Origin: an uncultured Actinomycetota bacterium
Lineage (GTDB): Bacteria > Actinomycetota > Actinomycetes > Mycobacteriales > QHCD01
Reading direction: 5' to 3'
Assembly (NCBI GenBank): GCA_963775655.1
Contig: CAVZJT010000007.1
Location: 734-64,733, forward strand
DNA: 64,000 nt
Shown here: positions 597 to 63,934 of the stretch, one piece after another
Layout: each line of letters opens with the position of its first letter
Position numbering within the stretch: position 1 is the stretch's first letter
Translations under genes and position numbers: made by a program
Notes under the pieces: model-generated
Database searches by the model: none
What the model was told of the DNA's origin: nothing
Seen by the model: only the letters and a program-made list of their open reading frames with translations

Positions 597-1453
597 ATGC
601 GGCGGCGTGATCGGTGACCCACTGGCGAAACGATCCCGCCGGCGATCCGAGGACGTCGTACACCGAAGTGGTGACGTACGCCGGCCGTCCCATCGTTGCG
701 CCCCACGCCGCGAGCAGCATGTCGACGGCCGGTCGCGGCCAGCTTCCCTCCGTCTCGCCTCGGAACTCGTCCGGCGACAGGTCCTCAAATCGGATCCGGC
801 GCCCGAGGACGTCGCCGATGATGGTGATCTGCTCCGCCTGACTCAGTGACTCGGGGCCGGTGAGGACGTAGTCGGCGCCGGCGTATCCGTCCTGATACAG
901 GGTCCGCGCGGCGACGGCTGCCACGTCACGGTCATCGACGGGCGCTGTTCTGCGGTGCCATAGGGCCATCGACGACGCCGTCGGCGCGAATCGCGGCCGC
1001 CCACCAGAAAACGGTGTTCGACGCGAACATTCCCGGCCGGATGATCGTCGACTCAAGCCCGGAAGCGGCGATGAGCCGCTCGATGTCGGCGTGCAGCGCC
1101 GCCATCGGATTCGGTTGCTGGAAGAAGGGGTGCGCGGTTTGGTGCGGAGACGAGAGAAAGACGACTCTCGGTGCGTGGGCCGCGAGGCGCTCGACGACCG
1201 CCGGAGCCGTCGTCGGCGGGACGGTCCAGACGAGGAAGACGGCACCGACACCGCGCAATGCTGCGTCGAGCGATTCGGGTGCGGTGAGGTCACCGGTGAC
1301 GACCTCGACCTCCGCCGGCAGCGTCGCCGCCTCGGGGCGATGCGTGAGGGCGCGGACCGGCACGCCCGCGTCTCTGAGTAGGTCGACTACCGAGCGCCCG
1401 ACCCGCCCGGTCGCTCCGGTGACGAGCACCGGAGGCACTCGCGTCCGTGTCAT
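574..1453 (-). pseudogene. NmrA/SDR-like NAD(P)-binding protein, frameshifted
   Basis: The Rossmann motif VLVTGATGRVGRSVV lies in ORF 932-1453. The C-terminal half (DRDVAAVAARTLYQDGYAGADYVLTGPESLSQAEQ) continues in ORF 574-1293. The frames join at G-run 940-942 (apparent extra nucleotide). Confidence 0.75.
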
Positions 1454-1619
1454 GAGAATCTCGGCGTCGTCCGTGGCAGGTGCACGTCATGAAGCATGCC
1501 ATCTTCTGAGAGCGGATGACGGCGAGCCGCGCTTGCACTCGATCGGTGACCTAAAGTTACTGCGGTGTAAGGGTTTCCGGGGTCGAAGAATTGTCGGTGG
1601 CTGGTTCTATCGTTGTCGC

Positions 1620-2981
1620 ATGGTCAGTGGTTCCGGTCCCGGTGAGCTCCCGGTGTGGGATGCGGTCGGCTGCCTGACCGCCGCCGTCGACGGGCTTGCC
1701 GGGGCGGCGTTGTGGCGGTGCGGGGATGCGGAGCTGCTGGATCTGCAGCGGGTGGTGGAGACGGCGGCCCGCCGGTTGTCGGCGGCGGCGTTGCGGCTGG
1801 TCGCGGAGGTCGACGACCGCCGGCTCGCCACCGACCGGGGGGCGGTGTCGACGGCGGCGTTGCTGCGGCAGGTGCTGAACATCTCCCCGGCGGAGGCGGG
1901 CTGGCGGGTCACCGCGGCGGAGAAACTGCTGGACCGGATCGGCCCGTCCGGGCAGACCGTGCCGGCGCGCTGCCGGCGACCGGGGCGGGGTTGGCGGACG
2001 GGTCGATCGGGGCGGGGCAGGCCCGGCTGATCTGCGACACGATCCGCCGCCTCCCCCCCGGGGTGGACGCCGACACCCGCGCCCGCGCGGAGGCGTTCCT
2101 GGCCGCCCAGGCCAGGGACCTGGACACGACGGCGTTGGGGAAGTGGCCCGCCGCATGCTCGCGACCCTGGACCCGGACGGGGCCGCGCTCGACGACGAGG
2201 ACGCGGTCCGGGCCCGGGAACTGTCCCTCGCCCGCGGGCCGGACGGGATGACGATGATCCGGGGCCGGCTCGATGCGGAAGGGGCGGCGGTGCTCCGCTG
2301 CGCGCTGGACCCGTTCACCGCCCCGGCCCCGTCCACCGCCGACGGCCCGGATCCGCGCAGCCCGGCCCGACGGCAGGCGGACGGGTTGATCGAACTGGCC
2401 CGCCGCGCCCTCACCGCCGGGGACCTGCCGGAGACCGGGGGCCAGCGCCCGCAGGTCACCGTCACCCTCGACTGGGAGACTCTCCGCACCCGGTTGGGGG
2501 CCGCGGAGCTGGGCTGGGGCGGGCCGGTCACCCCGGAGTCGGCCCGGCGGATCGCCTGCGACGCCCAACTCATCCCCGTCCTGCTCGGCACGGCCGGGCA
2601 GCCGCTGGACGTCGGGCGGGCCAGCCACACCATCCCGGTCGGCATCCGCCGCGCGCTGGTGGCCCGGGACCGGGGGTGCGCGTTCCCCGGCTGCGACCGG
2701 CCGGCCGCCTGGTGCGACGGGCACCACATCGAGCACTGGGCCGACGGCGGACCCACCGCGATCACCAACCTGGTGCTGCTCTGCGGGCACCACCACCGCA
2801 CCATCCACCACCACGACTGGCAGGTCCGACTTGATCAAGGCTTACCCGTGTTCCTGCCGCCACCCTGGATCGACCCCGACCAGACACCCGCCGTAACCGG
2901 CTGCACCACCTCCCCGCCATGCCCGACCCACCCGAGCCACCGGGCAGCCGCCGGCGACGCACCCTCGAGTTGGTCAACTAG
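1620..2981 (+). pseudogene. DUF222 / HNH endonuclease (REP13E12-type), three frameshifts
   Basis: The N-terminal DUF222-like part is in ORF 1014-2030 (from ATG 1620). The middle part (LADGSIGAGQARLICDTIRRLP) is in ORF 1655-2251. The HNH core (CAFPGCDRPAAWCDGHHIEHWADGGPTAITNLVLLCGHHHRTIH) is in ORF 2143-3051. A family-typical tail, PRRNRLHHLPA...LELVN, ends at TAG 2979-2981 in a fourth frame. Shifts occur at ~1961, ~2143 and C-run 2887-2889, each fitting one missing nucleotide. Confidence 0.8.
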
Positions 2982-2991
2982 TGGGACAGTG

Positions 2992-3325
2992 CGACATCGT
3001 GCGCCCTACCCGCACAATCGGGTCCTCGGATGCGAGTACGGCGCACGATGATGCCCAGCCGACCGCGGCCACCGGGCTATCGGCGAGCGCCGGCCGGACA
3101 TCGGACGCGCTACCCGCATAATCCAGCCTCAGATGCGAGTACAGGGTCCGATGATGGCGATGACCCCGAAGCCGCCACGACATCGTGCGCCCTACTCGCA
3201 CAATCGGGTCTTGGATGCGAGTAATTCGCCGGCACGGGCGATCGGCGAAGCGAGCCGAACATCGGACGCGCTCCACACATCATCCAGGCCCGCTGCGAGG
3301 ACGACGCACGATGATGCCCGCCATG
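2992..3325. repeat. Array of four related ~55-nt nested-hairpin units, two alternating subtypes (family C)
   Basis: Unit 1 (2995-3050) has outer stem CATCGTGCGCC/GGCGCACGATG and inner stem TACCCGCA/TGCGAGTA. Unit 2 (3099-3153) has outer stem CATCGGAC/GTCCGATG with the same inner stem. Unit 3 (3181-3223) has lost its 3' outer arm. Unit 4 (3260-3313) is a chimera. ORFs across the array only repeat DPIVRVGRTMS and are not credible. Confidence 0.7.
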
Positions 3326-7523: not shown

Positions 7524-9877
7524 TCACCGCACCTGCGTGAGCACCGTGTTGGACATGCCTGCGTTGGTGGTGTTGGTCGCGTAGTAGCGGTAGTCGGTGT
7601 TGGCGACGTAGCTCGTCATCCAGCGACCGCCGGCCGTGGCGGTGAGCGTCCGGCGAGCCGTGTAGCCCGGCACGTCCTTCTTCTTGAACCACACCCGGAT
7701 CGTCATTCCCGGCCGGGCGGTACCGACGATATTGACCGTCGAGCCGAGCGGGACCGTCGCCGGCCCCACCGTGAACGGCTTGATCTGAGTCAGGCCGTGC
7801 GGCGACATGCGTCCGCCGGAGGTGGCGTAGTAGCGGTAGTCGTTGTTGGCGACGTAACTGGTCGCCCAGTGACCGCTGCCATTGGCGTGCAGTCGACGGC
7901 GATTGGTGTAGTCGTCGGTGAGGTACTTGTGGAACCACACGTTGACGATCGCGTTCGGCGCGGCGGTGCCGCTCAACTCCACGCTCGTGTTGAGCTGGGC
8001 GAAGGCCGGCCCGGTGATGGTCACCGCCGGTCCGAGTGGAGTCACCGTGTTGGACGCCTTCGACGGCGCGGAGGGCCCGACCGAGTTGGTCGCGGTGACC
8101 TGGAACGAGTACTGGTCGCCGTTGGTCAGCCCGGTCACCGTGATCGGGCTCCCGGATCCGTCCGCGGTCTGGCCGCCGTGGCCGGGGTTGGTGTGATCAG
8201 TGGCCCGCACCGTGTACGAGGTGATGGCTGCGCCGCCGTCGTTGACGGGCGGCGTGAAGGTGACCGCGGCGGTGCCGTTCCCGGCGGTCGCGTGCGCGTC
8301 GGTCGGTGGGTCGGGCACGGTGACCGGGCCCATCGGCGTGACCGCGTTGGATTGCTCCGACGGGTCGGACGTGCCCACCCTGTTGGTGGCGGTGACCGTA
8401 AAGGTGTAGGTCGTGCCGTTGGTCAGCCCGTGCACCACGATCGGGCTACCCGGGCCGGTGGTCATCTGGCCGTCCAGCGGGGCCCGGCCGACGACCCGAC
8501 AACTCCGGGACACGCAGGGGGAGATCGCCTCGGCGGTCACGGTGTAGTGGGTGATCGCTGCCCCGCCGTCGTCCACCGGCGGCGTGAAGCTGACCGTCGC
8601 CTCCATGTGGCCCGCGAACGCGGTCACTTGGGTGGGTGCGCCGGGCACGGTCGCCGGAGTGACCGAGTTGGACGGATCCGACGGCAGCGATATCCCGTGG
8701 ATGTTCTTCGCGGTGACCGTGAAGGTGTACGCCGTGCCGTTGGTCAGACCGGGCACGGTGATCGGGCTGGCGAGTCCGCTGGCGGCTTTGCCGCCGGGGG
8801 ATGCCGTCACGGTGTAGCTGGTGATGGGTGCCCCGCCGGTGTTCACCGGTGCCGTGAAGGTCACTGCAGCGCTGGCGTTGCCGCCGGTCGCGTGCACGAG
8901 AGTCGGTGGGTGCGGCACCGTGCCCGGGGTCACCGTGTTGGAGACCGCCGAAGGCACCGAGTCACCGAAGGCATTCATCGCCTGGACGGTGAACGTGTAG
9001 TCGTCGCCGTTGTGCAGGCCGGTCACGGTGAGCGGGCTGCCGGGCCCGGTTGCGGTCTGGCCGCCGCGGCCCGGTTCGGTGGCATCGACGGCGAGCACGG
9101 TGTAGCCGGTGATCGGCGGGCCGCCGTCGTTCAGCGGCGGGGTGAAGGCCACGGCGGCAGACTGGTTCCCCGCGGTCGCGGTCACGCCGGTCGGCGGATC
9201 GGGGACCGTGCCGGGGATGACCGCGTTGGTCGGCGCTGACGGCTTCGACTTACCGAAGAAGTTCCGGGCGACGACGGTGAACGTGTAGCTGTCGCCGTTG
9301 GTCAGCCCGCGCACGGTGATCGGGCTCGTTACGCGGGTGGCGGTCTGCCCGCCGCGACTCGGATCGGTGTGGTCGGTCGCGGTGACGGTGTAGTCGCGGA
9401 TCTTTACGCCGCCGTTGCTCACCGGGATCTTGAACTTGACCAGGGCGTCGGTATTGCCCGCCGTCGCTTCGGCGCCGATCGGAGGTGCGGGCACGGTGCC
9501 CGGGATGACCGGGAAGGACGGCAGCGACGGGCGCGACGTACCGAAGAAGTTCCGCGCGGTGACGGTGAAGGTGTAAAGGTCGCCGTTGTGCAGGGTGCGC
9601 ACGGTCAGCGGGCTGGTCCGTCCGCGGCCGTCTGCCCGCCGCGCGCCGGATTGGTGAGATCGCGCGCGGTGACGGTGTAGCGGGTGATCGGGGCGAGGCC
9701 GCGGCGAGCCGGCGGGCTGAAGGTCACGGTCGCCTCGGCGTTGGCGGCCACGGCGTCGACGTTTCTCGGCGGGCCGGGCCGGCCGATCGCGTTCGGTGCC
9801 GGCGCGGCGGCGGCCGATCCCATCCCGAGCGTCTGCACTGATGCGGCGATGAGGATGGCGACAGACGCCACCTGCAT
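7524..9877 (-). pseudogene. Secreted protein with six fibronectin type III repeats and two C-terminal Ig-like repeats, one frameshift
   Basis: The signal peptide (MQVASVAILIAASVQTLGMGSAAA) and first FN3 repeat are in ORF 9605-9982; the rest is in ORF 7524-9602. The frames join inside the conserved GGQTA..SPLTV motif at ~9618 (one missing nucleotide). The repeated motif is P..NDGG..IT.YTV...GGQTA...SPITVTGLTNG..YTFTV.A.N. The C-terminal duplicated module carries YVAN.DYRYYAT. Confidence 0.85.
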
Positions 9878-9998
9878 GAAACGGATGCGTGGCACGATCC
9901 GACCCCCCGTCGGGTTACCCACCCTGAGTGGTCGAAGTATTACACAGCGCGTCCGACTTCCGGCGAGTCTCACGGGTCCCACCCGTTTCAGGGCTCCG

Positions 9999-10059
9999 AT
10001 TCCACGTCAACGTGACGTTGACGTGGCGAGAGCGCCGGAACGTCACGTTCACGCGGAAT
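9999..10059. repeat. Solo copy of the 61-nt palindromic unit (family A)
   Basis: Sequence is ATTCC-ACGTCAACGTGACGTTGACGTGG-CGAGAGCGCC-GGAACGTCACGTTCA-CGCGGAAT. Length and layout match the three units at 55136-55367. Confidence 0.75.
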
Positions 10060-10120
10060 GTGGGACCTATGCTTGCGGGACAGCTCGACTCTGCGTCGGG
10101 TTCCGGGGGCAGCCGTGGCC

Positions 10121-16874: not shown

Positions 16875-16954
16875 GGCTGGGCACGTTACCGCCGGGCCGG
16901 GTGCGGACCACACAGCGACGCACTCCGGCTACCAAGGTCCGGCTCGGCGGCCGC

Positions 16955-17036
16955 GGACAAAACCCACTACTAGTGGGTTTTGGACACCTGGCACGGCGTG
17001 TCGTGGACCAAAACCCACTACTAGTGGGTTTTGTCC
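16955..17036. repeat. 82-nt double-hairpin repeat (family B), copy 1, inverted relative to the other copies
   Basis: Two hairpins CAAAACCCACTA-C-TAGTGGGTTTTG (16958-16982 and 17009-17033) flank the linker CGGCGTGTCGTGGACC, which is the reverse complement of GGTCCACGACACGCCG. The copy lies 40 nt downstream of the rsgA stop. Confidence 0.85.
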
Positions 17037-17076
17037 AGCGGTCGATCCGGTTCAGCGGGGGCCGCCGCGCGGGTGC

Positions 17077-23117: not shown

Positions 23118-23225
23118 GCGGGTCTGTGCGGGTCAGCGCGGGTCAGGCGGGTTAGCGCGGGTCAGGCGGGTTGTCGCGGGTCAGGCGGGTTGTCGCGGGT
23201 CAGCCGGGTTGTCGCGGGTCAGCCG
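23118..23225. repeat. Tandem repeat, ~19-nt unit GCGGGTCAGGCGGGTTGTC (built from 9-10-nt half units), about 5.5 copies
   Basis: The sequence reads GCGGGTCTGT GCGGGTCAGC GCGGGTCAGGCGGGTTAGC GCGGGTCAGGCGGGTTGTC (x2) GCGGGTCAGCCGGGTTGTC GCGGGTCAGCC. The last unit supplies the stop codon (TCA 23219-23221) of the minus-strand GNAT gene. Confidence 0.85.
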
Positions 23226-23926
23226 GCGACCACGCCATGCTCGACGCACCGTGCGGTCCACGCGTCGGGCGTGATCTGGACGACCATCCGCCGGCGACAC
23301 TGCGGGCACCATCGAGCCGGCTCCAGCCGGCGTGCCTCGGCACAGCTGGCATGGTCGGCCCCGTCAAGTTCCCCGCCGCACCGGTCGCAGTAGCGCGGCG
23401 CCGGGTCGGTCGCGTCGGCTGTGAGGTCAAGGGCGTAGGTGATCAGCGCGACGTCCGGCGCGGGGGACCAGTCGCGGTCCGGCGTACGGCGGAAGCCGAA
23501 CCGGTCGTAGAGCCGGTGCGCGGCGACCATGTCGTGCTGGGTGGACAGTCGCATCGCGGTACTTCCCGCTGCGCGGGCCCGGCGTACGCACTCGCCGACC
23601 AGCGCGGTACCGATCCCGCGTCCGCGGATGGCCGGGTCGACGACCAGCATGCGAAACTCCGCCTCACCGGGCGCCGCGAGTTCGGCCCAGGGGCTACCAG
23701 CTGCGCAGTAGGTGACCGAGCCGAGGATGCCGCCGCCGGCTTCGGCAACTTCGGCAGCTTCGGCGACTAGGAGATCGGCCTCGCCGGCCCGCCGCTCGGC
23801 GTCGCGCAATTCCTTGAGATAGAACGAGTCCTGCGGCAGGAACCCGGCGTCGACGTAGACCCGCGCGGTCAGCTCGCCGATGGCGTCGTACTCCTCCGGG
23901 CGAGCAACGCGGACGACCGTGGCCAT
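23219..23926 (-). CDS. GNAT-family acetyltransferase with C-terminal zinc-ribbon-like extension
   Basis: Acetyl-CoA motif [15 protein letters not shown]. The C-terminal Cys pairs are CDRCGG and CPQCRR. Confidence 0.8.
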
Positions 23927-23976
23927 GCCCTACTCATACCTCATCCCCGAGTGGGCACATGCGCCGACTCGGCCTT

Positions 23977-24058
23977 GACCAAAACGCACTCCTAGTGCGT
24001 TTTGGTCCGCGACACGCCGGCGCGGCTCCCCAAAACGCACTAGGAGTGCGTTTTGGTC
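23977..24058. repeat. 82-nt double-hairpin repeat (family B), copy 2
   Basis: GACCAAAACGCACT-CCT-AGTGCGTTTTGGTC, then CGCGACACGCCGGCGCGGCTCC, then CCAAAACGCACT-AGG-AGTGCGTTTTGGTC. The copy lies 41 nt downstream of the DUF559 gene stop. Confidence 0.85.
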
Positions 24059-24099
24059 GCGAGGGCTGGGGCTCCGAGGTGCGATCTCGGAGTGTTGGG

Positions 24100-25012
24100 T
24101 CAGGCAGCGGGACGGAAGGCGGCGAGCGCGTCGGCGACGGTCTGTACGACGTAGCTGGGCCGCATCGTGGCGTCGTACCAGGTGAATCGGAGCACGTGCC
24201 ACCCGGCCAGCTCGACATCGTTACCGCGCTGCCGGTCCCGGTAGACGGCCTTGACCTCGTCGTGGACCGCCCGACCGTCCGCCTCGATCGCGATGCGCCA
24301 CTCGACGTAGGCGAAGTCCAGTCGGGCGACCACCCTCCCGTCGATGTCGGTGAGGACGTGCTGGAGCACAGGGAGTGGTAGGCCGCCGTCGACGAGGACG
24401 AGTCGGATCAGAGTCTCCAAGGGCGATTCGCTACGTGCGTCGACCAGCGACACCCGGCGACGGATCGGACAGGCGAACGGCTCAGATCCCACGTTCTCCG
24501 CGATGGTTGCAAGCTCGGACGGGGTGATGAGGTTCTTGCGGACGGCGTCCTCGCAAGCCCAGATTGCGGTCAGCCGGTCACTCCACCGCAGCAGGTCGAG
24601 CAATGTGCGACGCACGGTCGTCACCCGGATCCCGGCCACAGTCGTGACGTCGGATTCGGGGAGAGGACAGCTGTGCACCAGCAACAGCCGCCGGTTGCGC
24701 CGATGGTCGGTGGCGCATGCGTGCTCGTGCGGTTCCTTCCGAACGACATCGATCGCGTGCAGTCGGGCGGCAGTGTCCATGCTGACCACGGCACCGGCCG
24801 GCGCGCTCAGTGCGACGGCAGCGGCCCGAATCTCGGGAGTCAGGTTGAGTGCGGCGTCGGCGTAGACGCCGCGCTGGATCCGCCGCCAGTCTCCGCGTCT
24901 CACCAGGTAGGTGATGTCCTTGCCGGTCATTCCGGACGCGCGGGCTTGTGCCGACGGTGATCAAACCGTGCTGATGATCGGAATATCGGGTAAGGAGCGC
25001 GTCCACCCGCAC
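24100..25012 (-). pseudogene. DUF559 (Vsr/PD-(D/E)xK-like endonuclease) protein with AbiEi-like N-terminal domain, one frameshift
   Basis: The C-terminal DUF559 signature is SPLETLIRLVLVDGGLPLPVLQHVL...VARLDFAYVEWRIAIEADGRAVHD...DRQRGNDVELAGWHVLRFTW. The N-terminal 17 aa (VRVDALLTRYSDHQHGL) are in ORF 24578-25012 and join the main frame at ~24958-24962 (apparent extra nucleotide). Confidence 0.8.
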
Positions 25013-25142
25013 AGTGTCATCGCGAATATCGCCGACGACGACCGATCAATGACGGTGTGGATGAGCATTGCCGGCTGTGGAGAACGAGTTGACGCGGGCG
25101 CCGTACGCCACTCGCGGTACGCCGACCCCGGGGTTGCGGCGT

Positions 25143-25224
25143 GACCAAAACGCACTAGGAGTGCGTTTTGGTCCGCGACACGCCGGTGCGGGCCCCCAAA
25201 ACGCACTAGGAGTGCGTTTTGGTC
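25143..25224. repeat. 82-nt double-hairpin repeat (family B), copy 3
   Basis: Same orientation and subfamily as copy 2, with 76/82 positions identical by eye (three of the six differences are the inverted loop). The copy lies 39 nt downstream of the symporter stop. Confidence 0.85.
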
Positions 25225-25263
25225 ACGGGGCCCCGGAACGGGGCCGAGCGGGCGGGTGAGTGG

Positions 25264-26890
25264 CTACGCGGCGAGTTCGGGTTGGACGCGGGGGTCGTCG
25301 GCGTCGGCGTGGTAGTCGGCCGGCGCGGTCTGGTCCCGTCCGGCGGGCACCTTCAGGGCCCGGAAGACCAGGGTGAGTACGACGGCGATCACCACGTTCA
25401 TCACGAACGCGGTCAGGGCGATGTAGCCGGTCCGCCCACCCAGCAGGGGGATCGACGCCACCGAACCGCCGAAGTGCTTACCCGTCGCCGGATTCAGGAC
25501 GTTGTACGCCGACACCGTGCCGTAGACCATCGCCGCCGCCCAGCCGATCAGGAGCGCGTAGCGGTGCAGCCAGCGGGTGTAGAGCCCGAAGACGATGGCC
25601 GGGAAGGTCTGCAGGATCCAGATCCCGCCCAGCAGCTGGAAGTTCAGCGCGAGGGTCTTGTCGAGGAAGAGGACGAAGACGAGCGCGCCCAGCTTCACCA
25701 CCAGCGACACCAGCTTCGACACGGCCGCCTCGTGTGCCGGCGTGGCGCGGCGCCGGAAGAACTCGCGGTAGACGTTGCGGGTGAACAGATTCGCGGCGGC
25801 GATGGACATGATCGCGGCCGGCACCAGCGCACCGATCGCGATCGCGGCGAACGCGATGCCCGCGAACCAGCTCGGGAACATCTGCCGGAACAGCGCCGGC
25901 ACCACCAGCTGCGGGTTGGGCTTCCCGTCCAGCCCGATCACGCTCGTCTTCGCCGCGATCGCCATGAATCCCAGCAACGCCAGCAGGCCGAGCATCAGCG
26001 AGTACGCCGGCAGGATGGCGGCGTTGCGGCGGACGATGCCGCGGTTCTTGGTCGAGAGCACGGCGGTCACCGAGTGCGGATACATGAACAGCGCCATCGC
26101 CGATCCCAAAGCGAGGGTCGCGTAGGCCCACAATGCCTTGTCCGACGGGATCACCGAACTGCCCGGCAAGCGCCGACGGTGAACTCATCTTCGCCTGCGC
26201 GGCGTCGAAGATCTTGCCGAATCCGCCGAGTTTGTAAGGGATGTAGATGATCGCCACGATGACGACGAGGTAGATCAGGAAGTCCTTCACGAAGGCGATC
26301 AGCGCGGGCGCGCGAAGCCCGCTGGAGTAGGTGTATGCGGCGAGGATGGCGAAGGCGATGAACAGCGGCAGGTCCTTGGCGAAGGTGTTTCCGCCGCCAC
26401 CGATGCCGATCACCTCGAGCACCGCCTGGATTCCCACCAGCTGCAGGGCGATGTAGGGCATCGTCGCCAGGATCCCGGTGAGGGCGATCGCCAGTGACAA
26501 AGAGCGCGAGTCGAAGCGCCCGCGGATGAAGTCTGCCGGGGTGACGTAGCCGTGCCGGTGTGCGACCGACCACAGCCTCGGCATGAAGATGAAGATGAGC
26601 GGATAGACGATGATCGTGTAGGGCACGGCGAAGAAGCCGCTGACCGCGCCGCTGGCGTAGAGCGCCGCCGGCACCGCCACGAAGGTGTAGGCGGTGTAGA
26701 GGTCGCCGCCGAGCAGGAACCAGGTCACGAACGTGCCGAAGCCCCGCCCGCCCAGCCCCCACTCGTCGAGGCTGGACATTGCGTGGGTACGCCGCCAGCG
26801 GGTCGCCGCGAAGCCCACCACCGAGACGAGCAGGAAGAGCACGATGACGATGGTCAGCGCGACTCGCGTCGATCCCGTTTCCGGCCGCAC
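25264..26890 (-). pseudogene. Sodium:solute symporter (SSS) family transporter, one frameshift
   Basis: The N-terminal ~240 aa are in ORF 25478-26890 (VALTIVIVLFLLVSVVGFAATRW...GDLYTAYTFVAVPA). The C-terminal 300 aa are in ORF 25264-26169 (SSVIPSDKALWAYATLALGSA...). The frames join at ~26168-26172 (apparent extra nucleotide). The gene is preceded by a DUF3311 gene, as is typical for this transporter type. Confidence 0.8.
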
Positions 26891-27335: not shown

Positions 27336-28328
27336 TCACAATGCCTGCGACAGCGCCTTGATCGGCATCCGCAGGTCGGCCAGCATCGCCAGGTCCTCGG
27401 TCGCCGGTCGGCCCAGCGTGGTCAGGTAGTTCCCGACGATCACGGCGTTGACGCCGCCGAGCATTCCCTTGCTCGCCAGGTCGCCGAGGGCGAGTTCACG
27501 GCCGCCGGCGTAGCGGATGATGGTGCGCGGCAGGGCCAGCCGGAAGGCCGCCACCGTCTTCAACGCCGTCGCCGCGTCGATCACCGGCAGGTCGCCGAAC
27601 GGCGTGCCCGGACGGGGATTGAGGAAATTCAGCGGCACCTCGTCCGGTTCGAGCGCCGCGAGCTGGGCCGCGAACTCCGCCCGCTGCTCCAGCGATTCGC
27701 CCATCCCGACGATCCCGCCGCAGCAGACCTCCATGCCGGCGGTGCGCACCATCGTCAGCGTCGACCACCGCTCTTCCCAGCTGTGCGTGGTGACCACCTG
27801 CGGGAAGTAGGACCGGGCCGTCTCCAGGTTGTGGTTGTAGCGGTGTACGCCGATCGCGGCCAGCTCGTCGACCTGCTCCTGGGTGAGCATCCCCAGCGAG
27901 CAGGCGATGTTGATGTCGACCTCGGCGCGGATCGCCGCGACCGACTCGCGTACCTGGTCCATCAGCCGCTGGTTCGGCCCGCGCACCGCGGCGACGATGC
28001 AGAACTCGGTCGCTCCGGTCGCCGCGGTCTCCCGGGCGGCGCGCACCAACGACGGCACGTCCAGCCAGGCCGAGCGCACCGGGGAGTCGAAAAGCCCCGA
28101 CTGGGAGCAGAAATGGCAGTCCTCGGGGCAGCCGCCGGTCTTGGCGCTGACGATCCCCTCGACCTCGACCTCCGGCCCGCACCAGCGCATGCGGACCTCG
28201 TGCGCGACCTCCAGCAGCTCGTCGAGCCGCCCGTCGTCCACCTGCAGGCAGGCGAGGGTCTGGGCCTCGTCGAGGCCGTGACCGCCGTCGCGGACCTGCT
28301 CGCGGGCGGTGGTCAGGATGTCGGGCAC
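27336..28328 (-). CDS. bioB: Biotin synthase
   Basis: Radical-SAM cluster CPEDCHFC; YNHNLET and the rest of the ORF are colinear with BioB. GTG 28328 lies directly after the bioD stop. Confidence 0.9.
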
Positions 28329-28329
28329 G

Positions 28330-29061
28330 TCAGGTGCTCCTGTCCTCGGCGCTGCCGTGCATCTGCACCCCGAAGTCTGCCGCATCGAATCGCCCGCCGT
28401 ACGCCGGGGAGAGACCGGTGCGCGCGACGCCGAGGAAGTCCGGGGACCGAGCCGCCCCTTCAGCGAGGGCGCCGGCGAGCGGTCGCCCGCCCAGTGCGGC
28501 CAGGTCGTCGACATTGGCCCGGGCGGCCAGGTCGGGGTGCCGCGGCCACGATCCGACGACGATGCCGGACAGCGTGATCCCGCGTCCGGCCATGACCTCG
28601 AGGGTGAGCGCGGTGTGGTTCAGCGTCCCGAGGCCGGCCGCGACGACCAGCAGCGCCGGGGCCGCGAGCAGCCGGGTCAGATCGGCGATCGTCCATCCGT
28701 CCGGGCCGAACCGCACCAGCAGCCCGCCGGCACCCTCCACGATGACCAGATCGCGCTGCTCGGCGAGCGTCCGGATCCGCCGAGCCACGTCGTCGACGGT
28801 GGGTGCGGGGAGCCCGCTGCGCCGGGCCGCGGCCTCCGGCGAAAGCGGGTCGGGGTAGCGGGCGTATTCGTGCAGATCGTCCACAGTGGACAGGCGTCGT
28901 ACCTCCGCCAGATCGCCCGGCTCATCGGGCCCCACGCCGGTCTGGGCGGGTTTCACCACCGCCACCGTCGACCGCCGGTCGGCGGCCAACGCCGCGACAG
29001 CGGCCGTCACGACAGTCTTTCCCACGTCCGTGCCGGTCCCGGTGACCACCAGAATGCTCAT
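28330..29061 (-). CDS. bioD: Dethiobiotin synthase
   Basis: [22 protein letters not shown]-loop and the EGAGG motif. ATG at 29061. Confidence 0.85.
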
Positions 29062-55125: not shown

Positions 55126-55135
55126 CGCCGCGCCG

Positions 55136-55367
55136 ATTCCGCTTGAACGTGACGTTCAAGCGCTCTAGCCGCATGAACGTCACGTTGAGGCGGAATGGGG
55201 GGGCGGCGGCCGCCGCCATTCGGCTTGAACGTCACGTTCAAGCCTTCTAGTGGCATCGACGTCACGTTGATGCCGAACGGGGCGGCGACTCGAGTCGGCG
55301 CGCCCCATTCCGCTTGAACGTCACGTTCAAGCGCTCTAGCCGCATGAACGTCACGTTCACGCGGAAT
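55136..55367. repeat. Three tandem 61-nt palindromic units (family A) separated by GC-rich palindromic spacers
   Basis: Units lie at 55136-55196, 55218-55278 and 55307-55367. Each has the layout ATTCCGC-TTGAACGT(C/G)ACGTTCAA-GCGCTCTAGCCGC-ATGAACGTCACGTT..-GCGGAAT. The spacers contain GGCGGCGGCCGCCGCC and CGACTCGAGTCG. Confidence 0.85.
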
Positions 55368-56085
55368 GGGAATGGGAATGGGAATGGGGACGGGGGCGGC
55401 GGGGGCCGAGGAGTACGTCGGCGCGGGCGCCGGTCAGCTCACCGGGTTCGCCGACGAACGCCACCTCGCCGCGGCGGAGGACGTAGGCGATGTCGGCGAG
55501 CCGGAGCGCCTGCCCGACGTACTGCTCGACGAGCAGCACCGACCGGCCGGGCTCCCGCGCCAGGTCGGCGACCACGTCGTAGAGCCGCGTCACCACCTGC
55601 GGCGCCAGCCCGCGACTCAGTTCGTCGAGTAGCAAGACCTGCGACGGACGGAGCAGCGCCCGCGACAGCGACAGCATCTGCCGCTCACCGCCGGACAGGC
55701 TGCCGGCGCGTTGGCCCAGCCGGCCCCGCAGCACCGGAAACACTGCCAGCGCCGGGTCGGGCGCACCGCCATCGCCGAACACGGCGAGGTTGTCCCGTAC
55801 CGACATCGTGGCGAAGACGCCGTGCTCGTCGGGGAGCAGCGCGAGCCCGTGACGCACCCGGTCGTACGCCGGCAGCCCACTCACGTCCTCGCCGTCCCAG
55901 CAAACCGCACCGGCGGTCAGCGGAAGCAGCCCGGCCAGGACCCGCAGCGTCGTCGTCTTGCCCGCGCCGTTGTGACCGAGCAGCGCGGTGATCCCGCGGG
56001 CGGGTATGGCGAGGTCGATGCCGTGCAACACCTCCAGCGGCCCGTATCCGGCCCGCGCGCCGCGCAGCGCGATCCCGGCGCTCAT
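55357..56085 (-). CDS. Branched-chain amino-acid-type ABC transporter ATP-binding protein (LivF-like)
   Basis: Walker A GHNGAGKTT, signature LSGGERQM, Walker B LLLDELSRGL. The last ~11 codons and the stop (TCA 55357-55359) lie inside the microsatellite and the family A unit. Confidence 0.85.
   Translation of the reverse strand: MSAGIALRGARAGYGPLEVLHGIDLAIPARGITALLGHNGAGKTTTLRVLAGLLPLTAGAVCWDGEDVSGLPAYDRVRHGLALLPDEHGVFATMSVRDNLAVFGDGGAPDPALAVFPVLRGRLGQRAGSLSGGERQMLSLSRALLRPSQVLLLDELSRGLAPQVVTRLYDVVADLAREPGRSVLLVEQYVGQALRLADIAYVLRRGEVAFVGEPGELTGARADVLLGPRRPRPHSHSHSHSA
55365..55388. repeat. Hexanucleotide microsatellite (AATGGG)x4
   Basis: The microsatellite is contiguous with unit 3 of the family A array. 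On the minus strand it encodes the HSHSHSHS tail of the ABC ATPase. Confidence 0.9.
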
Positions 56086-63706: not shown

Positions 63707-63736
63707 CCGCTGGCCCCGGTGTGCCGGGGTGCGGCT

Positions 63737-63818
63737 GGACAAAACCCACTAGTAGTGGGTTTTGGTCCACGACACGCCGATCGGGCTGCCCAAAACCCAC
63801 TAGTAGTGGGTTTTGTCC
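63737..63818. repeat. 82-nt double-hairpin repeat (family B), copy 4
   Basis: GGACAAAACCCACTA-G-TAGTGGGTTTTGGTCC, then ACGACACGCCGATCGGGCTGCC, then CAAAACCCACTA-G-TAGTGGGTTTTGTCC. The copy lies 30 nt downstream of the methyltransferase stop. Confidence 0.85.
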
Positions 63819-63934
63819 GCGATCCGGGGCGAGAGCGGTATCACACCGAAAACAAGTTGCCGACGGCGAAGTACAGGTGGATGCTGGACGCGAGCAAGTA
63901 GTTGCATGAGTCAGTTAAGGAGTACGTCGAGCGC

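What the first reader, a model, noticed from the sequence alone, without database searches (positions are those of the whole stretch)
23977..25224. DUF559/AbiEi-like nuclease gene bracketed by two direct copies of the 82-nt element: candidate mobile cassette
The only gene between copies 2 and 3 is a 300-aa protein combining an AbiEi-like winged-helix N-terminus with a DUF559 (Vsr-like PD-(D/E)xK) nuclease C-terminus. This is a DNA-binding-plus-nuclease architecture reminiscent of homing endonucleases. The two flanking copies share orientation and subfamily and are ~93% identical (76/82 by eye). They are closer to each other than to copies 1 and 4. The first hairpin loop is exactly inverted between them (CCT vs AGG). 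The repeat-to-repeat period is 1166 bp. The segment sits between unrelated housekeeping-type genes (a GNAT and an SSS symporter). In addition, the other nuclease-type gene in the window (DUF222-HNH, 1620-2981) also abuts a hairpin array. As I recall, DUF559 paralogues are numerous in actinobacterial genomes but have no described mobility mechanism or cognate DNA site. A nuclease gene riding between, or targeting, palindromic repeats would be new.
Basis: partly seen in the sequence, partly recalled or inferred. Interest (0 to 1): 0.65.

Follow-up and report, generated by a model that had tools for sequence, protein, structure and literature searches.

The report
Nuclease gene bracketed by palindromic repeats
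A DNA-binding nuclease gene from a very large, uncharacterised actinobacterial family sits between two copies of an 88-base double palindrome that is also scattered around the genome; more than half of 68 distant relatives show the same "gene between two matching repeats" layout, which points to an undescribed nuclease-repeat partnership resembling the REPIN-RAYT systems of proteobacteria.

Summary
Two direct copies of an 88-nt double palindrome (81/89 identical, 1166 bp apart) bracket a single minus-strand gene. The gene encodes an AbiEi-like DNA-binding module fused to a Vsr/I-Bth0305I-type nuclease, and it is frameshifted in this error-prone assembly. The predicted empty site exists: a near-identical metagenome strain has symporter, ONE element, then GNAT, having lost exactly the gene plus one repeat. 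The layout is also a family trait. In 37 of 68 distant paralogue loci, matching 30-100-nt repeats lie in both 300-nt flanks. The same was true of 0 of 562 control placements (p~1e-41). The repeats are lineage-specific, and the pairs are inverted or direct. In two lineages (this one and Tsukamurella tyrosinosolvens) the bracketing element also occurs as solo copies beside unrelated housekeeping genes. However, in this lineage the gene is single-copy and always sits upstream of GNAT-BsaP, so the empty site is best read as a deletion. The cassettes are far more divergent than their flanks, with sharp boundaries, and they occur inverted or in other contexts. My best reading is a nuclease-repeat partnership of the REPIN-RAYT type, or less likely an IS-like cassette. 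I found no description of this in the papers I could search. The mechanism is unproven.

The parts
25142..25230 (+). It consists of two 25-31-nt palindromes (CAAAACGCACTAGGAGTGCGTTTTG) with centres 51 nt apart, and a spacer carrying the conserved core CGACACGCCG. It begins 34 nt after the MctP stop and lies about 130 nt upstream of the nuclease gene's start.
   Evidence: As single-stranded DNA it folds at -43 kcal/mol, z = -7.3.
25056..25084 (-). Pair of DnaA-box-like 9-mers 20 nt apart: TTCTCCACA at 25076-25084 and TCATCCACA at 25056-25064. They lie between the upstream element and the start codon, at -72 and -52. They are a candidate operator or DnaA site.
   Evidence: Exact TT[AG]TCCACA boxes lie upstream of 25/74 paralogues against 1/1024 control windows. 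DnaA box consensus taken from PMC4285127.
24100..25012 (-). AbiEi-like DNA-binding module fused to a DUF559/MTES_1575 (Vsr-fold) nuclease. The gene is 303 aa after removing one base at about 24951-24952. The family's conserved residues (SxxE, D, ExDG, H, DRxR, GWxVLRFT) are all present.
   Evidence: An AlphaFold model of the 92%-identical orthologue has pLDDT 93. Its N-terminal ~200 aa resemble AbiEi structures 6Y8Q and 1ZEL. Its C-terminal ~100 aa resemble I-Bth0305I (3R3P) and 3HRL.
23976..24064 (+). It has the same orientation as copy 3 and starts 36 nt after the nuclease stop codon. Its two arms are perfectly complementary, including the CCT/AGG centres, so it can form one long hairpin.
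   Evidence: Folds at -46 kcal/mol, z = -9.7.
16952..17039 (-). Solo copy of the element ('C' variant) between RsgA and an inositol monophosphatase. An element occupies the same intergenic position in two related genomes.
   Evidence: Orthologous copies at L089 18593/18644 and L002 17347/17398.
63736..63824 (+). Solo copy of the element ('C' variant), 30 nt downstream of an unrelated gene's stop codon.
23219..23926 (-). Flanking gene: a GNAT acetyltransferase fused to BsaP. It is the conserved downstream neighbour of the cassette in every related contig that carries the nuclease gene.
25264..26890 (-). Flanking gene: an MctP-type sodium:solute symporter, with a frameshift near 26170. It is the upstream neighbour.

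Best explanation
**What it is.** The gene belongs to a huge actinobacterial family of ~300-aa proteins. Each combines an AbiEi-type DNA-binding module with a Vsr/EDxHD-type nuclease domain. These genes come as discrete cassettes with this order:
- a lineage-specific repeat;
- a pair of TCCACA (DnaA-box-like) motifs;
- the gene;
- a second copy of the repeat.

**This lineage.** Here the bracketing repeat is an 88-nt double palindrome. It has a fixed 51-nt arm spacing and a conserved CGACACGCCG core, and it is also scattered as solo copies in many intergenic regions.

**Proposed mechanism (inferred, not shown).** The repeats are the protein's cognate DNA sites. The protein binds them through its DNA-binding module and nicks or cleaves them through its nuclease domain. 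This promotes their copying, and promotes recombination at them, in the manner of a REPIN-RAYT pair. In such a pair a single-copy, vertically inherited enzyme gene is flanked by the very repeats it maintains.

**History of the window's cassette.** The cassette was inherited vertically. It can be lost by recombination between its two direct repeats, which leaves one solo element. Its DNA-binding half has been exchanged or has diverged far faster than its neighbours.
For: **Shown**
1. Bracketing is a family trait. 37/68 paralogue loci have matching sequence in both 300-nt flanks, against 0/562 same-size control placements in the same loci (Fisher p = 2e-41). These belong to about 33 unrelated element families. 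Within 30 long loci, the non-tandem repeat pairs are almost only those around the DUF559 gene.
2. The bracketing element is dispersed in two independent lineages.
   - In this lineage: 2 solo copies in the window, and at least 12 loci in the related MAG MFD05442 next to aconitase, DnaK, purC, SDRs and similar genes.
   - In the isolate T. tyrosinosolvens NCTC13231: the bracketing pair plus solo copies between unrelated genes on two other records of the assembly.
3. The gene is single-copy and syntenic. Orthologues share 75-92% identity and the next homologue is at 49% or less. In every related contig that carries it and shows its surroundings, it lies upstream of GNAT-BsaP. Only one copy was found in the Tsukamurella records I could search.
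4. L004 shows a precise loss of the gene plus one repeat, with the crossover inside the 32 nt shared by the two copies.
5. The cassette diverges much faster than its flanks.
   - Window against L003: about 96% nucleotide identity in the symporter 3' end, about 65% in the gene's N-terminal half, and about 90-95% beyond.
   - L110 against L159: flanks 99.3-99.6% identical, cassette 65-80%, with the change falling exactly at the neighbours' stop and start codons.
6. A separate conserved promoter motif pair exists, so the bracketing repeats are not simply the operator.
7. Arm spacing is 51 nt in 25/25 elements from several genomes. The core GGCGTGTC/GACACGCC recurs in the bracketing elements of other families: 12 observed against 2.1 expected, p = 2e-6.
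8. The nuclease motif residues are conserved, and the fold matches a homing endonuclease's catalytic domain.

**From the literature.** REPIN-RAYT features are taken from PMC3116915, PMC5581495 and bioRxiv 10.1101/2022.05.22.493013 (abstracts listed).
Against: - No biochemical evidence shows that the protein binds or cuts the repeats.
- PD-(D/E)xK/Vsr-type nucleases have no known role in propagating repeats. RAYTs use HUH chemistry.
- For most other paralogue families I saw no dispersed copies, although I held only about 8 kb per genome.
- L002, a close relative of the MFD05442 MAG, lacks the gene at this locus yet keeps the elements. The elements therefore persist without the local gene, and I could not check the rest of that genome.
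- Solo elements could instead be footprints of deleted cassettes.
- The element at the RsgA site occupies the same position across genomes. This argues for low, old activity.
- The window's copy may be a pseudogene (frameshift), as is one short-read variant (L005).
Confidence: 0.45

Rival explanations
1. An autonomous mobile cassette, either IS-like or homing-like. The bracketing repeats are the terminal repeats of a one-gene element whose AbiEi-Vsr protein is its own mobility nuclease. Solo elements are footprints left when cassettes are deleted between their repeats, or MITE-like derivatives.
For: - One subfamily's unit (78-83% identical) lies in three different contexts, and similarity stops at the outer ends of the ~60-nt inverted repeats: TAGGTGGCTCTTCAAGGACTACCAACC... 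and ...CTTGAAGAGCCGCCAACTA.
- Inverted pairs predominate, 26 against 11.
- In Williamsia maris the gene is flanked by inverted arrays of 5 x 23-nt units, which look like multi-site transposon ends.
- The same neighbour gene carries cassettes in opposite orientation and of different type (L135/L133 and L107/L119).
- L004 shows how a solo element can arise.
- The nuclease has a homing-endonuclease-type fold.
Against: - No two near-identical copies were seen in different places.
- Orthologues are single-copy and syntenic in this lineage and in most related pairs.
- I saw no clear target-site duplication.
- Direct-repeat brackets, as in the window, are not what terminal inverted repeats look like.
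- The solo element at the RsgA site is conserved across genomes sharing ~80% GNAT identity.
Confidence: 0.25
2. Incidental association in this lineage. The 88-nt element is a generic REP-like intergenic repeat spread by some other factor, and two copies happen to occupy the two spacers around a non-essential gene. The empty site is plain homologous deletion.
For: - Most element copies lie beside unrelated genes.
- In L071 two elements bracket three unrelated genes.
- With 4 copies among roughly 55 spacers, an adjacent pair is not very improbable (my rough estimate is about 0.2).
- In L089 the upstream copy is separated from the gene by an extra NmrA-like gene and is inverted.
Against: - The family-wide enrichment of bracketing repeats (54% against 0%) makes chance an unlikely reason for this member.
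- A bracketing pair is present in the window, L003/5/6, L090 and, in altered form, L089.
- The same pattern of a bracketing pair plus solo copies recurs in Tsukamurella.
Confidence: 0.1
3. Purely regulatory or insulating sites. The repeats are protein-binding operators and/or bidirectional terminators that isolate a potentially toxic nuclease gene from read-through. No mobility is involved.
For: - AbiEi antitoxins autoregulate by binding inverted repeats in their promoters (abstracts of PMC7319586 and PMC3985639, listed).
- All four window copies start 30-38 nt after a stop codon.
- The palindromes end in T-runs on both strands.
Against: - A separate conserved TCCACA motif pair already occupies the promoter.
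- Regulation does not explain identical sequence downstream of the gene.
- It does not explain solo copies at unrelated loci, including divergent promoter regions (L071 at 3336 and L174).
- It does not explain unit boundaries that coincide with the repeat ends in different contexts, or the cassette-level replacement.
Confidence: 0.1
4. A programmed inversion switch. Inverted repeats flanking the gene let a recombinase flip it, giving phase variation.
For: - 'DUF559 domain-containing protein' (odds ratio 14.3) and 'Endonuclease domain-containing protein' (odds ratio 9.6) are enriched among predicted programmed-inversion targets (PMC9881135 Table 1).
- Two locus pairs show the cassette in opposite orientation relative to a shared flank.
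Against: - In the window and in about 30% of bracketed loci the repeats are direct.
- The conserved promoter motifs lie inside the unit, so flipping would not switch expression.
- No recombinase gene was seen next to the loci examined.
- The 'inverted' pairs also differ greatly in protein sequence (41-53% identity).
Confidence: 0.05
5. A cassette moved by a host site-specific recombinase, like an integron attC cassette or a pdif module. The palindromes would be the recombination sites and the nuclease merely cargo.
For: - The layout is one gene between palindromic sites.
- A gene-plus-one-site unit is precisely lost.
- The cassette is replaced between conserved neighbours.
Against: - The cargo is always the same protein family, whereas integron and pdif cassettes carry diverse genes.
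- The elements differ completely between lineages, which does not fit a conserved host recombinase.
- No integrase was seen nearby.
- The cassettes are solitary, not in arrays.
Confidence: 0.05

Closest known systems
REPIN-RAYT systems (REPtrons) of Proteobacteria
   Same: - A single-copy, vertically inherited nuclease-type gene is flanked on both sides by copies of a short palindromic element.
- The same element is dispersed in intergenic regions.
- The element is a doublet of inverted arms around a short spacer.
- Element sequences are lineage- and gene-specific.
   Different: - The enzyme is an AbiEi-like DNA-binding module fused to a Vsr/PD-(D/E)xK-type nuclease, not an IS200/IS605-type HUH tyrosine transposase.
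- The hosts are Actinomycetota.
- Brackets may be direct or inverted.
- Dispersal was shown in only two lineages and at modest copy number.
- No activity on the repeats has been shown.
Insertion sequences with MITE-like derivatives
   Same: - A one-gene unit is bounded by 30-100-nt repeats, mostly inverted.
- One subfamily's unit occurs in different contexts with boundaries at the repeat ends.
- Solo short elements occur elsewhere.
   Different: - I saw no multi-copy near-identical gene copies and no evident target-site duplication.
- The protein is not a known transposase family.
- The window's brackets are direct full-length elements rather than terminal inverted repeats.
EDxHD/Vsr-like homing endonuclease I-Bth0305I (PDB 3R3P; PMC3239194)
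   Same: The C-terminal ~100 aa of the modelled protein superpose on its catalytic domain (Foldseek probability 1.00, target-normalised TM 0.74). In both, a nuclease domain is fused to a separate DNA-recognition region.
   Different: - I-Bth0305I is encoded inside a phage group I intron and homes into recA.
- Here there is no intron or intein, the gene is free-standing between chromosomal genes, and the DNA-binding part is AbiEi-like.
AbiEi antitoxin of type IV AbiE toxin-antitoxin systems (PDB 6Y8Q, 1ZEL)
   Same: The N-terminal ~200 aa match AbiEi in sequence (PADLOC AbiEi models, E down to 3e-30) and in fold. AbiEi binds repeats in its own promoter.
   Different: - No AbiEii (DUF1814) toxin gene is adjacent in any locus examined.
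- A nuclease domain is fused to the module instead.
- Repeats flank both ends of the gene.
Vsr very-short-patch repair endonuclease and stand-alone DUF559 proteins (PDB 3HRL)
   Same: The nuclease superfamily is the same: Pfam DUF559/MTES_1575 hits and a profile hit to 3HRL.
   Different: - No adjacent cytosine methyltransferase was seen next to the window gene or in the related loci examined.
- The protein has an extra 200-aa DNA-binding module.
- The gene has a cassette-like organisation with bracketing repeats.
Integron gene cassettes and pdif modules
   Same: A single gene is delimited by palindromic sites, and the unit that is gained or lost is a gene plus one site.
   Different: - The cargo is always the same nuclease family.
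- The sites are lineage-specific rather than matched to a conserved recombinase.
- I saw no integrase and no arrays.

Membership tests
AbiEi_4 + DUF559/MTES_1575 protein family (Pfam PF13338 + PF04480/PF18741) | N-terminal AbiEi-type winged-helix domain | tested here: met
   PF13338 at E 2.7e-11, 43.8 bits against a cut-off of 25. PADLOC AbiEi models hit the orthologues at E 3e-30. Fold matches to 6Y8Q and 1ZEL.
AbiEi_4 + DUF559/MTES_1575 protein family (Pfam PF13338 + PF04480/PF18741) | C-terminal Vsr-fold nuclease domain with the family's conserved residues | tested here: met
   PF04480 scores 25.8 bits against a cut-off of 20.6. The invariant S, E, D, E-x-D-G, H and R columns are present in the window protein. 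Fold matches to 3R3P and 3HRL.
REPIN-RAYT system | Enzyme is an IS200/IS605-like HUH tyrosine transposase (RAYT) | tested here: not met
   The Pfam, PADLOC and fold searches give only AbiEi and Vsr/PD-(D/E)xK matches.
REPIN-RAYT system | Enzyme gene flanked by copies of the element | tested here: met
   Copies lie at 23976-24064 and 25142-25230 in the window. The same holds in L003/5/6 and L090. Family-wide the figure is 37/68.
REPIN-RAYT system | Element dispersed through the genome, mostly in intergenic regions | tested here: met
   There are 2 solo copies in the window and at least 12 loci in MAG MFD05442. Tsukamurella has solo copies.
REPIN-RAYT system | Enzyme gene single-copy and vertically inherited | tested here: met
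   There is one orthologue group per lineage and a gap to 49% or less identity. Synteny with GNAT-BsaP is conserved. However, cassette divergence does not track that of the flanks.
REPIN-RAYT system | Enzyme binds and cleaves the element | not testable with these tools
   This needs EMSA and nicking assays.
Insertion sequence / transposon | Multiple near-identical copies at different sites in one genome | tested here: not met
   No such pairs were found among the homologues or among the 80 loci. Units in different contexts are only 78-83% identical.
Insertion sequence / transposon | Terminal inverted repeats that delimit the unit | tested here: inconclusive
   Met in many paralogues: 26 inverted brackets, with boundaries at the repeat ends. 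Not met in the window, where the copies are direct.
Insertion sequence / transposon | Target-site duplication | tested here: inconclusive
   No duplication is evident around the window copies. The L095-type unit begins and ends with TA(G), which could be a duplication or part of the repeat.
Homing endonuclease gene (EDxHD family) | Encoded within an intron or intein, or inserted in its own recognition site | tested here: not met
   The gene is free-standing between two complete elements and two intact neighbour genes. The empty site is one intact element.
Type IV AbiE toxin-antitoxin system | Adjacent AbiEii (DUF1814) nucleotidyltransferase toxin gene | tested here: not met
   The neighbours are GNAT-BsaP and MctP. 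None of the related loci has a DUF1814 gene next to it.
Integron cassette | An integron integrase, and arrays of diverse cassettes each with an attC site | tested here: not met
   No integrase is annotated in the related loci. The cassettes are solitary and always encode the same family. The whole window was not exhaustively annotated.

The most novel reading that the evidence does not exclude
Actinobacteria carry a widespread, undescribed class of selfish or domesticated DNA. The family has at least 15,000 clusters at 50% identity. In it, an AbiEi-type DNA binder fused to a Vsr/EDxHD nuclease is expressed from a promoter carrying paired DnaA-box-like motifs. The protein recognises lineage-specific palindromic repeats that bracket its own gene, and it drives their spread, cassette exchange and inversion. 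This would be a non-HUH counterpart of REPIN-RAYT, and it would assign a function to the large actinobacterial AbiEi-DUF559 family.
Probability: 0.35. Interest if true: 0.85.

Novelty: new variant of a known kind. Interest (0 to 1): 0.72.

Why it matters
- **It suggests a function for a large orphan family.** AbiEi-DUF559 proteins are among the most numerous uncharacterised proteins of Actinobacteria, with 47,069 cluster representatives at E<=1e-10. I found no described function, DNA site or mobility mechanism for them in the papers I could search. The cassette layout (matching repeats on both sides, a conserved promoter motif pair, sharp hyper-divergence relative to the flanks) gives each protein a candidate cognate DNA site that can be read straight from the genome.
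- **It makes the family testable.** Suitable culturable strains exist, such as Tsukamurella tyrosinosolvens NCTC13231 and Williamsia maris.
- **If the nuclease maintains the repeats, the wider consequences are these.** The REPIN-RAYT principle would extend to a different enzyme chemistry and a different phylum. It would also explain the origin of actinobacterial intergenic palindromes.
- **Practical consequences.** The repeats are hot spots for deletion, inversion and allele replacement, which matters for comparing genomes and for assembling these high-GC organisms.

Tried and rejected
- **Rfam.** Scanning the whole window at gathering thresholds matched no family.
- **Source contig.** Exact look-ups of the window's GNAT protein found no record, so the rest of the 884-kb source contig could not be read.
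- **Genome-collection scan.** My hairpin pattern was too loose. Only the 12 loci of one related MAG were useful, and no genome-wide copy number could be obtained.
- **Locus scan with the 25-sequence alignment.** A 12-sequence alignment worked.
- **Plasmid search.** It found no close homologue. At a looser threshold it gave the Tsukamurella case, and a Nonomuraea chromosome whose paralogue has no bracketing repeats.
- **G/C stem variants as compensatory covariation.** I considered this reading. It is undermined because about half the palindromes in MAG MFD05442 carry G..G or C..C at that position. Orthologous elements at the RsgA site do still differ by a paired change.
- **Which symmetry is conserved.** I tested whether the two arms are better conserved as inverted or as direct copies. 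There is no difference: mean 2.4 against 2.3 mismatches.
- **Terminator-only reading.** Rejected because copies occur in divergent promoter regions.
- **L004 as a mis-assembly.** This is unlikely. L004 comes from a different sample, has an extra SNP in the symporter and a different GGGGCC repeat number, and is about 99% (not 100%) identical elsewhere. It cannot be excluded without the reads.
- **Other isolates.** The Geodermatophilus and Polymorphospora paralogues lack bracketing repeats, consistent with a prevalence of about 50%.
Full report
**1. The observation**

The window has 71% G+C and comes from an uncultured actinobacterium. Its closest named relative is the MAG 'uncultured Actinomycetota MFD05442.bin.3.622'. 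It holds four copies of one ~88-nt element, at 16952-17039 (opposite orientation), 23976-24064, 25142-25230 and 63736-63824. The palindrome pattern gives 8 matches against 0 in 100 shuffles.

Each element consists of two 25-31-nt palindromes, CAAAAC[G/C]CACTnnnAGTG[C/G]GTTTTG. Copies 2 and 3 are direct and start 1166 bp apart. They share the 'G' variant, whereas copies 1 and 4 carry the 'C' variant.

The single gene between copies 2 and 3 runs on the minus strand from 25012 to 24100, with a 1-nt frameshift near 24951. The repaired 303-aa protein has an AbiEi_4 domain and an MTES_1575/DUF559 domain. The neighbours are a GNAT-BsaP fusion and an MctP-type symporter. The symporter and the DUF222-HNH gene also carry frameshifts. 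Assembly error is therefore a likely cause of the frameshift, and I treat the gene's integrity as undecided.

**2. The protein**

A 40-sequence alignment gives a confident model of the 92%-identical orthologue (pLDDT 93).
- The first ~200 residues resemble whole AbiEi antitoxins (6Y8Q, 1ZEL).
- The last ~100 residues resemble the catalytic domain of the homing endonuclease I-Bth0305I (3R3P, target-normalised TM 0.74) and the DUF559 protein 3HRL.
- The family's invariant residues (S, E, D, ExDG, H, R) are present in the window protein.
- No AbiEii toxin gene is adjacent.

The family is very large. A profile search finds 15,778 cluster representatives (clusters at 50% identity) at E<=1e-30 and 47,069 at E<=1e-10.

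**3. Related genomes at this locus**

I used the GNAT-BsaP neighbour as an anchor.
- Contigs with 93%-identical GNAT (L003, L005, L006) have the same layout: symporter, element, intact 301-aa gene, element, GNAT. Both elements there are the 'C' variant.
- L090 (orthologue 79% identical to L003's) has the same layout.
- The MAG MFD05442 (L089, 75%) keeps the gene upstream of GNAT-BsaP with an element after it. An NmrA-like gene has come between the gene and the upstream element, and that element is inverted.
- L001 has other genes at this position and no elements. L002 has an IS at this position but keeps elements elsewhere.
- Homologues form one tight group (75-92% identity), followed by a gap to 49% or less.

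The gene is therefore single-copy and positionally conserved in this lineage.

**4. The empty site**

L004 encodes the same GNAT protein as L003 and is about 99% identical to it overall. It reads symporter stop, ONE element, GNAT start.

L003 1-433 aligns to L004 21-453, and L003 1478-5739 aligns to L004 368-4647. L004 therefore lacks exactly 1130 bp, which is the gene plus one element. The single copy has the left flank of the upstream copy and the interior and right flank of the downstream copy. This places the crossover in the 32 nt that the two copies share.

The filled state is shared by much more diverged lineages, so a deletion between the direct repeats is the simplest reading.

L005 carries a frameshifted copy. 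Inactivation and loss therefore recur in this lineage.

**5. Elements away from the gene**

- In the window, copy 1 lies between RsgA and an inositol monophosphatase, and copy 4 lies after an unrelated gene.
- In MFD05442, twelve element loci lie next to aconitase, DnaK, SAICAR synthase, SDRs, TetR, MerR, MarR, MFS and similar genes. None contains a DUF559 homologue.
- The RsgA-site element is positionally conserved in the window, L089 and L002.

Seen from the element's side, then, adjacency to the nuclease gene is the exception.

**6. The decisive result: bracketing is a family trait**

A protein-pattern scan of metagenome contigs returned 80 loci with paralogues 29-43% identical to the query. 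I aligned the 300 nt upstream of each gene against the 300 nt downstream, in both orientations.
- 37 of the 68 testable loci score at least 25.
- 0 of 562 same-length segments placed elsewhere in the same loci reach that score (Fisher p = 2e-41).
- In cross-locus controls the 95th percentile was 15.
- In self-comparisons of 30 long loci, the dispersed repeat pairs are almost exclusively those around the DUF559 gene.

The repeats are 30-100 nt long. They lie about 20-190 nt before the matched coding region and 2-150 nt after it. They fall into about 33 unrelated sequence families, and they are inverted-best in 26 loci and direct-best in 11.

Cultured isolates show the same layout.
- T. tyrosinosolvens NCTC13231 has a 42-nt palindrome on both sides of its single DUF559 gene. 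It also has solo copies between unrelated genes on two other records of the assembly.
- Williamsia maris has inverted arrays of five 23-nt units on either side of its gene.
- Two other isolates show no bracketing repeats.

**7. Cassette behaviour**

- Window against L003: nucleotide identity is about 96% in the symporter 3' end and collapses at its stop codon. It is about 65% through the gene's DNA-binding half and about 83% in the nuclease half. It returns to 90-95% from the GNAT start onward.
- Protein identities among the four lineages are star-like (75-79%). GNAT identities, in contrast, range from 80% to 93%.
- L110 and L159 have flanks 99.3-99.6% identical but a cassette only 65-80% identical. 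The change falls exactly at the neighbours' stop and start codons.
- One subfamily's unit occurs in three different contexts, with similarity confined to the unit and ending at the outer ends of its ~60-nt inverted repeats.
- Two locus pairs share a flank but carry cassettes in opposite orientation and of different type.

These patterns show that the cassette has an evolutionary history separate from its neighbours: replacement, inversion, and occasional relocation.

**8. Anatomy shared across the family**

- Between the upstream repeat and the start codon lies a conserved motif, GTT[A/G]TCCACAGG, often in two copies 19-22 nt apart.
- Exact TT[AG]TCCACA 9-mers occur upstream of 25/74 paralogues, against 1/1024 control windows.
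- These are the high-affinity DnaA box sequences of E. coli/B. subtilis (TTATCCACA) and M. tuberculosis/S. coelicolor (TTGTCCACA) (PMC4285127).
- The window gene keeps a degenerate pair 20 nt apart, at 25076-25084 and 25056-25064.
- Within the window's element family, the arm-to-arm spacing is 51 nt in all 25 elements examined.
- The spacer core CGACACGCCG is invariant in the four window copies. It also recurs in the bracketing elements of other families: 12 observed against 2.1 expected.
- The centre triplet of each palindrome flips (ACT/AGT, CCT/AGG). In copy 2 this makes the two arms perfectly complementary, so the element can form one long hairpin.

**9. Interpretation**

The following are shown:
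- the layout at this locus;
- its family-wide enrichment;
- dispersal of the bracketing element in two lineages;
- single-copy synteny in this lineage;
- repeat-mediated loss;
- cassette-level divergence.

It is inferred, not shown, that the repeats are the protein's cognate sites and that the nuclease promotes their copying or recombination.

The closest known logic is REPIN-RAYT (sources), and membership fails on the enzyme class. An IS-like or homing-like autonomous cassette is the main rival. It is favoured by the multi-context subfamily and by the bias towards inverted repeats. It is disfavoured by the lack of multi-copy near-identical genes.

The regulatory, incidental, inversion-switch and host-recombinase readings each fail to explain several observations.

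**10. Verdict**

The window's cassette is probably not moving now. It is nonetheless a typical member of an apparently undescribed class of repeat-bracketed nuclease cassettes.

Noticed in passing
window 25056-25084 (- strand); L091-L170 upstream regions: Paired DnaA-box sequences (TT[AG]TCCACA, usually 19-22 nt apart) lie upstream of AbiEi-DUF559 genes in 25/74 loci, against 1/1024 control windows. The window keeps a degenerate pair. These could reflect DnaA control of a nuclease gene, or a self-operator that mimics the DnaA box.
   Followed up: partly
window ~24951, ~26170, and 1014-3051: The DUF559 gene, the MctP symporter and the DUF222-HNH gene (two shifts) all carry frameshifts. This suggests indel errors in a long-read MAG assembly rather than true pseudogenes.
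   Followed up: partly
window 2989-3287: A different hairpin and repeat array (units of about 80-104 nt) starts within the last ~60 nt of the DUF222-HNH reading frame (frame ends at 3051). Whether DUF222-HNH genes are also systematically repeat-associated was not tested.
   Followed up: no
window 55127-55376 and 9990-10068: A third palindromic family (TTGAACGTGACGTTCAA-type arms) has three tandem 82-89-nt units between a periplasmic binding-protein gene and an ABC ATPase gene that converge on each other, plus one distant copy. No nuclease gene is adjacent.
   Followed up: partly
window 23219-23926 and 27336-28514: The GNAT protein carries a C-terminal BsaP (biotin synthase auxiliary protein) domain. 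It is separated from bioB by DUF3311, MctP and the nuclease cassette. The interval between the symporter and GNAT-BsaP is variable in relatives: PhyH plus an esterase in L001, an IS in L002, and an NmrA-like gene in L089.
   Followed up: partly
window 23118-23222: A tandem array of a ~19-nt unit (GCGGGTCAGGCGGGTTAGC-like, about 5 copies) lies just downstream of the GNAT-BsaP stop codon, beside the biotin-carrier-like gene. It is absent from L003, where the alignment shows a gap.
   Followed up: no
window 8038-9628: Diverged repeats with a period of about 288 nt (60-79% identical) lie inside what looks like a large repeat-domain coding region.
   Followed up: no
L110 4774-6040 vs L159 2338-3500: Two strains with 99.3-99.6% identical flanks carry DUF559 cassettes only 65-80% identical. 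The divergence starts at the upstream gene's stop codon and ends at the downstream gene's ATG. Neither locus has bracketing repeats.
   Followed up: partly
L175 2808-2911 and 3868-3970 (Williamsia maris): The DUF559 gene is flanked by inverted arrays of five 23-nt units (CCAGTTGGGCACGTAA core). They resemble iterons or the multi-site ends of transposons.
   Followed up: partly
L013-L088 (MAG MFD05442): About half of the palindromes carry G..G or C..C at the variable stem position. They are imperfect as hairpins but identical as direct copies within an element. This hints at recognition of duplex half-sites rather than a need for hairpin pairing, or at systematic base-calling error.
   Followed up: partly
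L002 8876 and 9004-9898: In a genome whose GNAT is 98% identical to that of L089, an IS5-like element (DUF4096 plus DDE_Tnp_1) lies where the nuclease cassette should be. A lone half-element lies just upstream of the IS.
   Followed up: no
L103 3969-4035 vs L098 5739-5778: In L103 a third copy of the bracketing repeat occupies an intergenic spot 2.1 kb from the DUF559 gene. At that spot the orthologous locus L098 has a different palindrome. This is evidence that this second element family also moves or is replaced.
   Followed up: partly
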